Source of the DNA: Naegleria gruberi
Taxonomy: Eukaryota
Reading direction: 5' to 3' (one strand)
DNA length: 64,000 nt
Assembly (NCBI GenBank): GCA_000004985.1
Contig: GG738845.1
Each line of letters starts with the position of its first letter. Position 1 is the first letter of the stretch. Both the position numbers and the translations under genes were made by a program. Below the pieces are notes generated by a model that saw only the letters and a list, made by a program, of their open reading frames with translations, made no database searches and was not told where the DNA came from. This document shows positions 41,370 through 44,858 of this stretch, piece by piece.

Positions 41370-44300
41370 ATGTCTTCCCAAACCTTGAACGTGCAGGCTC
41401 TGTCAGAACAAACGAAGGAGGAAAGCCCTATGAAATCCTTTCCAAGGTTTAGACCATTTCTCAAAAGTGAAGTAGAGAGTTCAGGAGACGATAAGCCAAA
41501 ATGTTGTGCTGCATTTCATAAGGTAGGTTGAGATTGTTTGAGTGTTGTTTAAAAATCCGAAAGAATGGAAAAAATATTTTGATAAAACATGGTGTTTCGT
41601 CGAATGTTGAATTTACTTTTGACAAAGTGTTGAAAACAACCAATACACAAGAAGATGTATATAATAGTTGTGGAGATGATATTATGAAACATATATTAAA
41701 GGGCCATAACTGTACATTATTTGCACTTGGGGCCCACCAATCCGGTACGTATCATTCATTTTAAAACTTAACTTTCTAATACACATACGAAACAGGTAAA
41801 ACATATACCCTTTTTGGTAACGTAGCAAAATCAGCTAATTGGGCAACTGAACTGGAAAATCAAAAATTTGATGGTATTGCTCCTCGTTTTATAAGAGCTG
41901 TTTTTGATTTTATTATGAATCAAAGCCCAGAAAATATAGAATTCTCAGTTTCTCTTAATGCATTCGAAATTTGTGGATTGGAAAATGGCAATGACGCCTT
42001 AATGAATGATTTATTAGCTAATACCTCGACACCTCCAAAATTAGACGTACTCGTTGAGGAGGAAACTAATGCTGTGGAAATTGTTGGACTTCAGGAGGTT
42101 TTTGTTACAAGTGATAGTGAATTGTTTGAAAATATTTCTGGTGCACTAATGAAAAGATCTAAAAGTAAGTATTTAAAACTTCATTATATTATATATTTGT
42201 ATAGAATTTAGCACAGCATTCTTTGAAATTAAATTTGTACAACATGACACTTCAACTAACTTGACAAAGGAAGGAAGATTGTGCATTATTGATTTGGATT
42301 CTGAACGCTCCAGTGATCAATATAGGAATACCAGAAAGACTGGATGTAAAGTTTTTCAAGAGGTAGCAGAATCTCTCTACACGGAAGTTGAGGATTATGA
42401 CTATTTCAGTACAACTCTAAAATGCCTTGTATTTTCTAGAGTTTTTGTGAATACAGCCACATTTTCCTTTGTGACTTTATCTCCAATGATATCGGTAGTA
42501 GAAGACCAAACCATTCCATATTTACAACTGGCATCCAAGATTTGTGAACTCTCTAGTGATGTCATGGTAAATTATGTACAAGATCCTATTGTTGAAACTC
42601 CACAAGAAGAAGAAAAATCAATCCCTACTCCGCATCCAGTAGCTTCTGTGCAAGCTAATGCCAAGGTAGAGGCTGTACAACAGGAAGAACTAGCCAAACC
42701 AATTGGCAACCCTACTTCCCTGCCTACCACAAATGAAAAAAAAGAAATTCCAACAATCCTTGACATTCCACCGAAACCAACTCAATCAATCACTGATGTA
42801 ACGAAATCTGAGGAATATATGCAAATTTTGAAGGAAAAAATTAACATTGAAGAGGATATATTACTCCTACGCACACAATTCAATTCGCTTAAGGATCAAC
42901 TTGAACGTGAAGAAGAAAAAGCTAGTAAGTTTGAAAAAGAAGCCTCTTTAAAAGATAGTGCCACTAAAGAGCTTGCAAAACAATTGAAAGAAAGCTTTGC
43001 ACTCACAGAACAACTTCAAAAAGAAAGAGACCGCTACGAAGAGCAAGTCAAAGCATCTCAAAATGACATTCAACAGTTGAAAGAGAAATTGATTCATGAA
43101 GAATCTATTAGGGATGAACTAAATGAAAAGGCTCACGAACAAGAAAAAACACTAGCAAATTATAGGTCATCAGAGGAGCAAATGACTATTCAGATTACTC
43201 AACTTAAAAAAGAGTTACAAGAATTTAAACAATCTTCCAACACTAATCATGGAAGTATCCCGACTCCTCTAAAAAACAAAGGAGAAGAACTAGAAAAGGA
43301 AGTAGTATTGCTCATAAAAAGCCAACATGAAGAATTGAAAAATGCATATAACGAACTCTCAATCAAAATTGTTGAACTTGAAAAGAAGAACATTTATCTG
43401 GAAGAAGAACTTGTAGATGCTGAAAAGAAAGCACTTGAAGCTGATGACCCATCCCACCAATTAATTGAAAAGCTAAAATCAAAGAACAAACTGTTATTAG
43501 AACAGTTGAACCTGTCAAAGAGAGAAAATTTAAAATCTCGTGAGAAATCAGTAGAAATTAACATGAAACTTATTGAACAAAAAATTCAAGAATATCAGCA
43601 GTTAGTAAATCAATCATCAACAGTGTTACCAACTCCACTTAACGATACAACAGTCACTGTAAATAATGAAGATTTGGAACCAATATCTCCACAAGAAAAA
43701 CTCAATGTTCAAAAGTTGAAAGAAAAGGTTACAGATCTTACCAACAAACTTACTACAGCTCGTAAGAAAGCAACAGAAACTGAAATTGCAAGAATGAAAT
43801 GGCAAGAAGGTGAAAAGGCGACACGACAAAAAATCTCTGATTTGGAAAATGAGATTGAAGAGCTCAAACAAAAAATGACGGCAAAAGAATCATCCTTAAA
43901 AGAAGAAATTGATCAATTACAAAAAGAAATCAATAGCTGGAGAGAAACTGACCAAAAGATCAAGTCTGAATTGAAAAAAATTGAAAAGGAAAAACAAAGC
44001 TTGGAACAAGTTATCAAAAAGGAAAATGTTAACAGAAAAAAGAGTGTAATGGTTATGCATCAAGTACAACAAGTTCAAGAAAGTAATAATTTGATTTTGA
44101 GAAATGAGTTAGCTCAAGCTAGAGAGAGAATTGAATATTTGGAGCGTGAACTAAAAAAAATCGGTGGACCAGGTATGAAAATATCATCCAGATCTCAAAC
44201 AATCTCCCCATCATCACGCAGTCCTATGACTCCAACTAGTGAATCTTCCTCACAAAGTCTCCCAACAACAGCTCCTAAAAAACTGGATGACAATTCCCAG

Positions 44301-44858
44301 AAAGACCTTAGACAAAAAGAGATTCAATCCAAGAGACAATCTGTTCTAATTAATAAGAATGCAATGCAGGCACTTCGAGTAAACATTCAAACAGAAAAAC
44401 CAAAACAAGAGATCTCCTCCCCAACAGAAGATATTCATGATGATGCAGATGAAGAAGAGTACGGAAAACAATTCGCATCCAATACATATGATCCACACCA
44501 AGCAAACGAAACGACCATGTCGGAAAATGTGAACCCCAAAATAGACAAATCAGGATATCTCTTTAAGAAAGGTCCGAAAATCAATATTTTCAAAAAGAGA
44601 TTCTTTAAGATTGAAGGTCATAATCTAATATATCAAACGGATAGTAAGGATTCCAAAGCTCTTGGTTCAATTGATTTGAGAACAGCTCTCACTGATATTG
44701 CTCCTGAAAAATCGAGTAATAAGAGAAAATATGTTTTCAGAGTAGAAATTCCAGGAAGAACCTACTTTATGTCAGCACCATCCAAAGAAGATAGAGATGA
44801 ATGGGTTATTTCTTTGAGACATGTCATTCAAAAACTGAGCAATGAAAATAGTTTTTAA
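41370..44858 (+). CDS. Kinesin-like protein with degenerate motor motifs, long coiled-coil stalk and C-terminal PH domain (about 1115 aa); exons 41370..41522, 41564..41744, 41796..42164, 42217..44858
   Basis: Kinesin fold landmarks in order: FTFDKVL, P-loop GAHQSGKTYTLFG, a switch-I position reading ALMKRSKTFFEIKFVQHD (canonical NxxSSRSHAIFTI), and a switch-II position reading GRLCIIDLDSERS (canonical LVDLAGSE). The C-terminus has a PH-domain pattern (GYLFKKGPKINIFKKRFFKIEGHNLIY...YVFRVEIPGRTYFMSAPSKEDRDEWVISLRHVIQ). Introns of 41, 51 and 52 nt. Confidence 0.6.

What the first reader, a model, noticed from the sequence alone, without database searches (positions are those of the whole stretch)
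41370..44858. Kinesin-like protein with substituted catalytic switch motifs plus C-terminal PH domain (candidate pseudo-motor)
The motor domain keeps the overall kinesin order (FTFDKV, P-loop GAHQSGKT, neck and stalk). Switch I reads KRSKT instead of SSRSH. Switch II reads DLDSER instead of DLAGSE, losing the universally conserved DxxG glycine. The HIPYR region is also altered. Such changes usually abolish ATP hydrolysis or gating. Combined with a lipid-binding PH domain at the C-terminus, this looks like a kinesin-3-like cargo or membrane tether that may have lost or altered motor activity. Splicing (introns 41523-41563, 41745-41795, 42165-42216) is needed to see the motor, so it could be missed by ORF-based annotation.
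Basis: partly seen in the sequence, partly recalled or inferred. Interest (0 to 1): 0.6.

Follow-up and report, generated by a model that had tools for sequence, protein, structure and literature searches.

The report
Naegleria kinesin-like protein, degenerate motor, PH tail
This is a real, already annotated but unstudied Naegleria gruberi gene for a kinesin-like protein that keeps its ATP-binding loop but has lost its catalytic switch motifs, ends in a lipid-binding PH domain, and is conserved under selection in related amoebae, so it is probably a non-motile tether or adaptor.

Summary
The window is Naegleria gruberi scaffold_1, and the gene is NAEGRDRAFT_61244 (XP_002683093.1, "predicted protein"). 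A four-exon gene at 41370-44858 encodes 1118 aa: an N-terminal kinesin motor fold, a disordered linker, a roughly 450-aa helical stalk and a C-terminal PH domain.

RFRP and the P-loop (GAHQSGKT) are intact. Three regions are degenerate:
- The switch I loop is 11 residues shorter and reads SKKFS instead of SSRSH.
- Switch II reads DLDSER, with no DxxG glycine.
- The L12/alpha5 motif PYRDSKLT reads DYFSTTLK.

These changes are shared by orthologues in N. lovaniensis, N. fowleri, Willaertia magna and, in a more reduced form, Acrasis kona. The motor evolves under strong purifying selection (dN/dS 0.085). It is therefore neither an artefact nor a pseudogene.

- Intron 3 ends at 42204, not 42216.
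- The gene is not kinesin-3-like. It is closest to kinesin-1 and has no FHA domain or K-loop.
- It was annotated, although the JGI model wrongly drops 46 motor residues.

The closest known analogue is Trypanosoma brucei TbPH1, a likely inactive kinesin-like protein with a coiled coil and a PH domain. I could not test homology to it. Verdict: a new member of a known kind (pseudo-kinesin); moderate interest.

The parts
41370..44858 (+). Whole coding gene (ATG to TAA), 4 exons, 1118 aa. It is N. gruberi NAEGRDRAFT_61244 / jgi_61244 at scaffold_1:425370-428858.
41370..41522 (+). Exon 1 (aa 1-51), containing the RFRP adenine-binding motif at 41445-41456.
   Evidence: RFRP is invariant in the family and in kinesins.
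41523..41563 (+). Intron 1 (41 nt, GT..AG, phase 0). The JGI model instead uses 41523-41701.
   Evidence: The 46 aa that JGI removes are conserved in the orthologues. The intron position is conserved in N. lovaniensis and N. fowleri.
41564..41744 (+). Exon 2, with FTFDKV (41612-41629) and the first part of the P-loop.
41745..41795 (+). Intron 2 (51 nt) inside the P-loop codons. It is absent from the N. lovaniensis and N. fowleri genes.
41796..42164 (+). Exon 3 (P-loop end to KRSK).
42165..42204 (+). Intron 3 (40 nt, phase 1).
42205..44858 (+). Exon 4 (rest of motor, stalk, PH, stop codon).
41430..42566 (+). Kinesin motor fold (aa 21-355).
   Evidence: Pfam. The family profile aligns to kinesin-1 residues 6-345. 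The AlphaFold model of the N. lovaniensis orthologue has pLDDT 90, and its best structural match is kinesin-1 (1mkj, 3j8y), TM 0.78/0.85.
41729..41803 (+). P-loop GAHQSGKT (GxxxxGK[ST] retained), interrupted by intron 2.
42152..42224 (+). Switch I remnant KRSKKFSTAFF. It has an 11-residue deletion relative to kinesin-1 and reads SKKFS where kinesin-1 has SSRSH. Interrupted by intron 3.
42291..42308 (+). Switch II remnant DLDSER (no DxxG glycine), followed by a shortened L11.
42396..42452 (+). L12/alpha5 equivalent YDYFSTTLKCLVFSRVFVN. It replaces PYRDSKLTRILQDSLGGN, with R278F, K281T and R284C in kinesin-1 numbering.
42552..42575 (+). Neck-linker-like SSDVMVNY after alpha6.
42582..42809 (+). 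Disordered Pro/Glu/Thr-rich linker (aa 361-436). There is no neck coiled coil directly after the head.
   Evidence: pLDDT below 50. dN/dS 0.49. Composition.
42810..44162 (+). Helical stalk: three long helices (aa 437-579, 591-707, 730-887) with short breaks. It is presumed to be a dimerising coiled coil.
   Evidence: AlphaFold secondary structure. E/K/L/Q-rich composition and heptad-type periodicity.
43443..43547 (+). Strongly conserved stalk segment DDPSHQLIEKLKSKNKLLLEQLN..KREN.
43698..43817 (+). Conserved stalk segment KLNVQKLKEKVTDLTNKL..ARKK.TE.EIARMKWQEGEK, containing a cluster of nearly invariant positions.
44289..44390 (+). Short fourth helix (aa 930-963) between two disordered Ser/Thr-rich or acidic segments.
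44550..44846 (+). C-terminal PH domain (aa 1017-1115). The basic beta1-beta2 motif GYLFKKGPKINIFKKRFFKI lies at 44553-44612.
   Evidence: Pfam PH E 3.6e-17. Closest solved PH domains are PLEKHA4-7, DAPP1, centaurin and GRP1. AlphaFold pLDDT 80-92. dN/dS 0.046.

Best explanation
The gene encodes a non-motile 'pseudo-kinesin'.

Shown:
- It has a complete kinesin motor fold that keeps the nucleotide-binding P-loop and the RFRP adenine pocket.
- It has lost the gamma-phosphate-sensing machinery. The switch I loop is shortened by 11 residues and has no NxxSS. The switch II DxxG glycine is absent, and L11 is shortened.
- It has lost the main basic tubulin-contact residues of L12/alpha5.
- The head is followed by a roughly 75-residue disordered linker instead of a neck coiled coil, then a roughly 450-residue helical stalk, and a C-terminal PH domain of the phosphoinositide-binding type.
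- All parts are under purifying selection and are conserved across Heterolobosea.

Inferred:
- The head can still bind a nucleotide.
- It cannot couple hydrolysis to movement.
- The stalk dimerises, with itself, with its paralogue or with an active kinesin.
- The PH domain anchors the complex to a phosphoinositide membrane.

The protein most likely acts as a static tether or as a targeting or regulatory subunit. It would link a membrane to a microtubule array of the flagellate or mitotic stage, or to a partner motor, as reported for the similarly built T. brucei TbPH1.
For: - Fold and homology.
- Motif state across six family members compared with kinesin-1.
- No alternative frame or exon restores the motifs.
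- Conservation in N. lovaniensis, N. fowleri, Willaertia, Acrasis and environmental relatives.
- dN/dS for N. lovaniensis vs N. fowleri: motor 0.085, PH 0.046, stalk 0.106, linker 0.49.
[quoted passage not shown] 1999, as cited in PMC4547097). The G234A mutant releases ADP rapidly (bioRxiv 10.1101/2024.09.19.613825).
- Family heads are more acidic than canonical ones: net charge -10 to -23 against -11 to +4, and the L8 region is -7 to -10 against 0.
- Tail architecture.
- PH relatives.
- Precedent of a likely inactive kinesin-like protein with a coiled coil and a PH domain that binds an active kinesin on a specific microtubule structure.
Against: - No biochemical or localisation data exist for this protein.
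- Under the gapped alignment, S202, K-for-R203, H205 (F in N. gruberi) and possibly E236 remain, so residual or unusual ATPase activity cannot be excluded from sequence alone.
- Microtubule binding is neither shown nor excluded.
- Interphase Naegleria amoebae have no microtubules, and the expression stage of this gene is unknown.
- Lipid binding by the PH domain is inferred only from motif and relatives.
- Homology to TbPH1 could not be tested because its sequence was not obtainable. TbPH1 is degenerate in the P-loop, not in the switches.
- The structural model is of the N. lovaniensis orthologue (about 71-73% identical in the motor), because the spliced N. gruberi protein was not accepted by the tool.
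Confidence: 0.55

Rival explanations
1. It is still a working, if unusual, ATP-driven motor. The retained P-loop, Ser/Lys/His of the shortened switch I and Glu of switch II would support hydrolysis by a modified mechanism, and the protein would carry PH-bound membranes along microtubules.
For: - The P-loop, RFRP and D231 are intact.
- The gapped alignment keeps S202, R203K, H205 (except in N. gruberi) and E236.
- A neck-linker-like segment is retained.
- There is strong purifying selection on the head.
Against: - The switch II glycine is absent in every member, and it is essential for motor activity.
- There are an 11-residue deletion in switch I and a 9-13-residue deletion in L11.
- R278, K281 and R284 of the tubulin interface are replaced by F, T/S and C, except that Acrasis has a gap at the R284 position.
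- There is no neck coiled coil next to the head, so head-head coordination is unlikely.
Confidence: 0.15
2. The kinesin fold has been repurposed for a microtubule-independent role, for example as a nucleotide-binding or protein-binding module on membranes of the amoeba, which has no interphase microtubules.
For: - Interphase amoebae contain no microtubules.
- The L12/alpha5 basic residues are lost and the head is unusually acidic.
- The replaced L12/alpha5 surface is itself highly conserved within the family (YFSTTL[KR]CL[LV]FSR[VI]F[VI]N), as expected for a new binding surface.
Against: - Some basic residues remain in the alpha4 region (R/K at the positions of K252, N255 and K256).
- The analogous TbPH1 is on microtubules.
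- Naegleria builds microtubules in mitosis and in flagellates, and the expression stage of the gene is unknown.
Confidence: 0.2
3. It is a kinesin-3 (KIF1A/Unc104-type) cargo motor with a PH tail.
For: A C-terminal PH domain with an N-terminal motor resembles the KIF1A/Unc104 layout.
Against: - The best matches are kinesin-1 and kinesin-5, and KIF1A is far weaker.
- There is no FHA domain and no K-loop.
- It is not among the N. gruberi kinesin-3 genes in the published tree table.
Confidence: 0.03
4. The degenerate motifs are an artefact of sequencing, assembly or gene model, or the gene is a decaying pseudogene.
Against: - The same substitutions and deletions occur in independently sequenced genomes of three further genera or species.
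- The reading frame is intact over 1118 codons.
- dN/dS of the motor is 0.085.
- No canonical motif is found in any forward (+ strand) reading frame.
Confidence: 0.02

Closest known systems
Trypanosoma brucei TbPH1 (Tb927.3.2490), a kinesin-like PH-domain protein (Benz et al., bioRxiv 10.1101/2021.09.29.462327)
   Same: - It has an N-terminal kinesin-like domain judged catalytically inactive, a central coiled coil and a C-terminal PH domain, at about 110 kDa.
- It comes from the same supergroup (Discoba).
- The described role is as a non-motor partner of an active kinesin on a defined microtubule structure next to a membrane, the flagellar pocket.
   Different: - TbPH1 is degenerate in the Walker A/P-loop (G93P, T95R). 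The Naegleria family keeps the P-loop and is degenerate in switch I, switch II, L11 and L12/alpha5.
- TbPH1 has a homeodomain-like fold after the PH domain. The Naegleria protein ends a few residues after it.
- Sequence homology or orthology could not be tested here.
Kinesin-1 heavy chain (KIF5)
   Same: - It is the closest solved relative by sequence and by fold.
- Both have an N-terminal head, a neck-linker-like segment and a long stalk.
- The Acrasis relative is even annotated 'kinesin heavy chain'.
   Different: - Identity is only about 24-30%, and the switch I/II and L12 motifs are degenerate.
- There is no neck coiled coil next to the head and no IAK tail motif.
- It has a PH tail.
- It is not placed in kinesin-1 in the published Naegleria table (no occurrence of 61244 in Data S1).
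Kinesin-3 (KIF1A/Unc104)
   Same: N-terminal head and C-terminal PH domain.
   Different: There is no FHA domain and no K-loop, the motor similarity is weak, and the catalytic motifs are degenerate.
Other non-catalytic kinesin relatives (Vik1/Cik1 partners of Kar3; kinesin-11 KIF26/VAB-8/Smy1; Costal2). These are from my own knowledge, plus the Vik1 mention.
   Same: In each case a kinesin fold is kept for binding or scaffolding rather than for ATP-driven stepping. Vik1 works as the non-motor half of a heterodimer with an active kinesin.
   Different: - Vik1/Cik1 have a C-terminal motor-homology domain with no nucleotide site at all.
- None of these has a PH tail.
- No sequence comparison with them was run here.

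Membership tests
Kinesin superfamily (motor-domain fold, PF00225) | Significant match to the kinesin motor profile over the whole domain. | tested here: met
   Pfam scores 117.9 bits against a cutoff of 29.3. The family profile aligns to kinesin-1 residues 6-345 with E 5e-32.
Kinesin superfamily (motor-domain fold, PF00225) | Kinesin three-dimensional fold. | tested here: met
   The AlphaFold model of the orthologue has pLDDT 90 and pTM 0.89. Foldseek's best match is 1mkj/3j8y, TM 0.78/0.85. The model is of the N. lovaniensis protein, not the N. gruberi one.
Catalytically competent kinesin motor | N1 P-loop GxxxxGK[ST]. | tested here: met
   GAHQSGKT. The motif is retained in all family members.
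Catalytically competent kinesin motor | N4 RxRP adenine pocket. | tested here: met
   RFRP is invariant.
Catalytically competent kinesin motor | N2 switch I NxxSSRSH. | tested here: not met
   An 11-residue deletion removes N198 and S201. The remainder reads SKKFS (SKKHS in the orthologues).
Catalytically competent kinesin motor | N3 switch II DxxGxE with the invariant glycine. | tested here: not met
   DLDSER, DLDAER or DLDKFG. No member has the glycine.
Catalytically competent kinesin motor | L12/alpha5 tubulin-binding motif (V/I)PYRDSKLT with R278, K281 and R284. | tested here: not met
   It reads DYFSTTLKC, giving R278F, K281T/S and R284C.
Catalytically competent kinesin motor | Microtubule-stimulated ATPase and motility. 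| not testable with these tools
   This needs purified protein.
Kinesin-3 | Motor domain groups with KIF1A/Unc104. | tested here: not met
   By score the ranking is kinesin-1 > kinesin-5 > kinesin-4 > CENP-E/KIF15 > kinesin-13, with KIF1A outside the best 60. The gene is not among the kinesin-3 genes in the published table. I did not build a tree myself.
Kinesin-3 | FHA domain after the neck. | tested here: not met
   There is no FHA hit at E up to 0.1. The region after the head is disordered.
Kinesin-3 | Lysine-rich K-loop in L12. | tested here: not met
   The L12 equivalent EVEDYDYF has no lysine.
Kinesin-3 | C-terminal PH (KIF1A/Unc104 subgroup). | tested here: met
   Pfam PH E 3.6e-17.
Kinesin-1 | Canonical motor, neck coiled coil directly after the neck linker, and an IAK auto-inhibitory tail motif. 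| tested here: not met
   The motifs are degenerate. A 75-residue disordered linker follows the head. There is no IAK.
TbPH1-type kinesin-like PH proteins | Architecture: N-terminal kinesin-like domain with degenerate catalytic motifs, a coiled coil and a C-terminal PH domain. | tested here: met
   compared with the description.
TbPH1-type kinesin-like PH proteins | Sequence homology or orthology to Tb927.3.2490. | not testable with these tools
TbPH1-type kinesin-like PH proteins | Walker A substitutions (G93P, T95R) and a homeodomain-like fold after the PH domain. | tested here: not met
   The P-loop is intact. The protein ends right after the PH domain.
TbPH1-type kinesin-like PH proteins | Tight complex with an active kinesin, and localisation to a specific microtubule structure. 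| not testable with these tools
   This needs immunoprecipitation and imaging.
Vik1/Cik1-type motor-homology proteins | C-terminal motor-homology domain lacking any nucleotide-binding site (definition from my own knowledge). | tested here: not met
   Here the domain is N-terminal and the P-loop is intact.

The most novel reading that the evidence does not exclude
The heterolobosean family and trypanosome TbPH1 are descendants of one ancient Discoba protein. That ancestor would be a nucleotide-binding but non-hydrolysing kinesin-like subunit with a PH anchor. It would pair with active kinesins and mark membrane-adjacent flagellar-root microtubules. In trypanosomes this structure is the microtubule quartet, and in Naegleria flagellates it would be the rootlet or cortical array. 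The two lineages would then have inactivated the head by different routes: the P-loop in kinetoplastids and the switch loops in heteroloboseans.
Probability: 0.2. Interest if true: 0.6.

Novelty: new member of a known kind. Interest (0 to 1): 0.35.

Why it matters
Naturally inactivated kinesin heads are rare. They show which parts of the motor can be given up while the fold stays useful. This family keeps the nucleotide pocket but deletes the two switch loops and rewrites the tubulin-contact helix, yet it is as constrained as an enzyme. That makes it a clean natural experiment on what a kinesin head does when it no longer steps.

Naegleria has no microtubules in the crawling amoeba and builds them only for mitosis and for flagellates. 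Finding when and where this protein acts would say whether the fold still reads microtubules at all.

If it proves related to trypanosome TbPH1, it would point to an old, conserved class of non-motor kinesin subunits at membrane-microtubule contacts. N. fowleri, a lethal human pathogen, carries two copies.

Tried and rejected
1. A homologue search with the motor domain alone returned only five distant kinesins. It missed the N. gruberi protein and all orthologues. The full-length query found them, so the first result was a word-index miss, not evidence of absence.
2. Exact look-ups of ten neighbouring ORFs found nothing. The organism was identified through BOP1 instead.
3. I tried synteny to reach orthologues. 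The BOP1 neighbourhoods of N. lovaniensis and Willaertia do not contain the gene, and the N. gruberi BOP1 record could not be looked up.
I therefore used orthologue substrings for the profile search and the N. lovaniensis head for the structure.
5. The AlphaFold-database fold search, which might have surfaced TbPH1, was not available.
6. TbPH1's sequence was not in the preprint's supplements or in other papers.
7. Literature searches by gene identifiers gave no hits.
8. Expression of jgi_61244 could not be read because the stored expression table is truncated.
9. I considered and rejected a hidden exon or alternative frame restoring SSRSH/DLAGSE, a pseudogene and kinesin-3 membership.
10. I did not build a phylogenetic tree, because no tree software or labelled family set was at hand. 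The placement 'nearest to kinesin-1' rests on score ranking only.
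Full report
**Identity of the window and the gene.** The window is gene-dense, 33% G+C eukaryotic DNA with very short GT..AG introns. The BOP1 ORF at 46852-49452 (-) is 100% identical to Naegleria gruberi BOP1 on a 1.56-Mb contig. A published GFF places gene jgi_61244 at scaffold_1:425370-428858, with exons that map exactly onto 41370-41522, 41702-41744, 41796-42164 and 42205-44858. 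The window is therefore scaffold_1:384001-448000. The protein is in public databases as NAEGRDRAFT_61244 / XP_002683093.1 / D2UXU4, "predicted protein", with kinesin and PH Pfam hits precomputed. No paper in the searchable library mentions it by any identifier.

**Check of the observation.** Splicing the exons gives an open frame of 1118 codons. It matches Pfam Kinesin (E 6e-34) and PH (E 3.6e-17), and it matches solved kinesin-1 heads best (E 3.6e-20). No SSRSH-like or DLAGSE-like string exists in any forward (+ strand) reading frame of 41300-42400.

**Gene model.** Two points differ from the models on offer.
The acceptor at 42204 is used by JGI and gives KRSKKFSTAFFEI, which matches KRSKKHSSAFFEI in the orthologues. 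It also raises the Pfam score from 109.4 to 117.9 bits.
- The JGI model's intron 1 (41523-41701) removes 46 residues (NGKNILIKHGVSS...MKHILK).
- Rebuilding the exon structures of the N. lovaniensis and N. fowleri genes shows that the positions and phases of introns 1 and 3 are shared. Intron 2 is specific to N. gruberi, and another intron is specific to the other two species.

**Relatives.** The full-length query found six kinds of relative:
- an orthologue in N. lovaniensis (1202 aa, 56% identity);
- an orthologue in N. fowleri (FDP41_011697, 1201 aa);
- an orthologue in Willaertia magna (1193 aa);
- a more distant relative in Acrasis kona (1233 aa, annotated "kinesin heavy chain");
- a second paralogue in N. 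lovaniensis and N. fowleri (999 and 1036 aa);
- several unnamed environmental sequences.

A full HMMER scan of 1.84 billion representatives with the family's head profile gave 18 hits below 1e-30. The top ones share the family's peculiarities. Some carry the same PH tail (P0180), and at least one (P0158, 1374 aa) apparently does not. Canonical kinesins start at about 125 bits.

**State of the motor.** I also aligned the heads with 14 canonical kinesins. The results are as follows.
- RFRP and the P-loop GxxxxGK[ST] are intact in all members.
- D231 is kept in all but paralogue B.
- The switch I region has an 11-residue deletion that removes the NxxS part. What remains reads S-K-K-[H/F]-S where kinesin-1 has S-R-S-H-S.
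- Switch II reads DLD[S/A]ER (DLDKFG in Acrasis; lost altogether in paralogue B). No member has a glycine at the DxxG position. Depending on where the one-residue gap is put, E236 is either kept or replaced by R.
- L11 is 9-13 residues shorter.
- The L12/alpha5 motif PYRDSKLTRILQDSLGGN is replaced by [DE]YF[SA]T[TS]L[KR]CL[LV]FSR[VI]F[VI]N. The three classic basic tubulin contacts become F, T/S and C.
- The heads are also markedly more acidic than canonical ones.

The whole domain is nevertheless homologous to kinesin. The family profile aligns to kinesin-1 residues 6-345. An AlphaFold model of the N. lovaniensis head is confident (pLDDT 90, pTM 0.89), and it superposes best on kinesin-1 with a docked neck linker (1mkj, TM 0.78/0.85).

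**Is it decaying?** No. For the N. lovaniensis / N. fowleri pair, where dS is about 0.5-0.9 and not saturated, dN/dS by region is:

| Region | dN/dS |
|---|---|
| Head | 0.085 |
| Stalk | 0.106 |
| PH domain | 0.046 |
| Linker after the head | 0.49 |

The head is also the part best conserved between N. gruberi and the other species (72-73% identity against 62-63% overall).

**Rest of the protein.** An AlphaFold run on the N. gruberi sequence after the head (aa 361-1118, with orthologues as alignment) predicts the following:
- about 75 disordered residues;
- three long helices (aa 437-579, 591-707, 730-887) and a short fourth helix;
- two disordered Ser/Thr-rich or acidic stretches;
- a PH fold (aa 1017-1115, pLDDT 80-92).

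The stalk is E/K/L/Q-rich with heptad-type periodicity. It holds two segments that are nearly invariant across the family. The PH domain is closest to the phosphoinositide-binding PLEKHA4-7, DAPP1, centaurin and GRP1 domains. It carries a basic K-K-G-x6-K-K-R-F-F beta1-beta2 motif. That this motif indicates lipid binding is my inference from general knowledge of PH domains.

**Mechanism.**

*Shown:* fold, motif state, conservation, selection and architecture.

[quoted passage not shown] 1999). G234A kinesin-1 releases ADP quickly even without microtubules.

*Inferred:*
- The head probably binds nucleotide but cannot close its switches on the gamma-phosphate, so it does not step.
- The long floppy linker between head and stalk argues against coordinated two-head walking.
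- The stalk dimerises.
- The PH domain attaches to a membrane.

The protein would then be a static tether or a targeting or regulatory subunit. Whether the head still binds microtubules is open. Interphase Naegleria amoebae have none, and microtubules exist only in the spindle and in flagellates.

**Comparison with known systems.** The gene is absent from all named families in that table, so it is an orphan nearest to kinesin-1.

The closest described system is T. brucei TbPH1. It is an N-terminal kinesin-like domain judged inactive, followed by a coiled coil and a PH domain. It binds the active kinesin TbKifX2A tightly and sits on the microtubule quartet by the flagellar pocket. The architecture and the supergroup match. 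The lesion differs, since TbPH1's is in the P-loop, and TbPH1 has an extra homeodomain-like fold. I could not obtain its sequence, so homology is untested. Other non-catalytic kinesin relatives (Vik1/Cik1, kinesin-11, Costal2) are functional analogues only. That comparison is from my own knowledge and was not tested here.

**Verdict.** The kinesin-3 label and the "missed by annotation" point are not. The gene is an uncharacterised member of a small, conserved heterolobosean family of degenerate kinesin-like PH proteins. It is a new member of a known kind and of moderate interest. It would be more interesting if it proves to be the counterpart of TbPH1.

Noticed in passing
window 41523-41701: The public JGI/RefSeq model of this gene (XP_002683093.1, 1072 aa) treats 41564-41701 as intron. 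It thereby drops 46 conserved motor residues that the orthologues keep, so the database protein is a mis-spliced version.
   Followed up: yes
window 40834-41255 (+): A possible small two-exon gene (about 123 aa with intron 40944-40993) lies between jgi_61243 and jgi_61244. It is not in the JGI GFF and has no Pfam match. It may be an unannotated gene or a chance ORF.
   Followed up: partly
window 43443-43547 and 43698-43817: Two stalk segments are nearly invariant across the family: DDPSHQLIEKLKSKNKLLLEQLN..KREN and KLNxQKLKEKVTDLTNKL..ARKK.TE.EIARMKWQEGEK. They are far more conserved than the surrounding coiled coil and are candidate partner-binding sites.
   Followed up: partly
P0131 (N. lovaniensis), P0306 (N. 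fowleri FDP41_010265): N. lovaniensis and N. fowleri carry a second, more reduced paralogue. In it switch II and L11-alpha4 are largely deleted (HITTNGE) and the P-loop ends in GKS. I did not determine whether N. gruberi has this copy.
   Followed up: partly
P0299 (environmental, 1086 aa): This is a fully canonical kinesin-1-like motor (SSRSH, DLAGSE, PYRDSKLT) with a coiled coil and a C-terminal PH domain. An active kinesin with the same layout therefore exists somewhere in nature. Its organism is unknown.
   Followed up: no
L003/L004 vs window 41745-41795: There is intron turnover within the genus. The N. gruberi intron inside the P-loop codons is absent in N. lovaniensis and N. fowleri. Those two species instead have a roughly 230-250-nt intron after NGKNILIK that N. 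gruberi lacks.
   Followed up: yes
window 13119-20591 (+): A 2490-aa uninterrupted ORF has no Pfam match at E up to 1e-5.
   Followed up: no
window 54213-55385 (+), 29122-30132 (+): Flagellum- or microtubule-related neighbours lie in the same window: an IFT52 homologue and a p25-alpha (TPPP-like) domain protein. This is probably coincidental.
   Followed up: no
The word-indexed homologue search with the 400-aa head alone missed the organism's own protein and all orthologues, which the full-length query found. This is a caution for negative results from that tool.
   Followed up: yes
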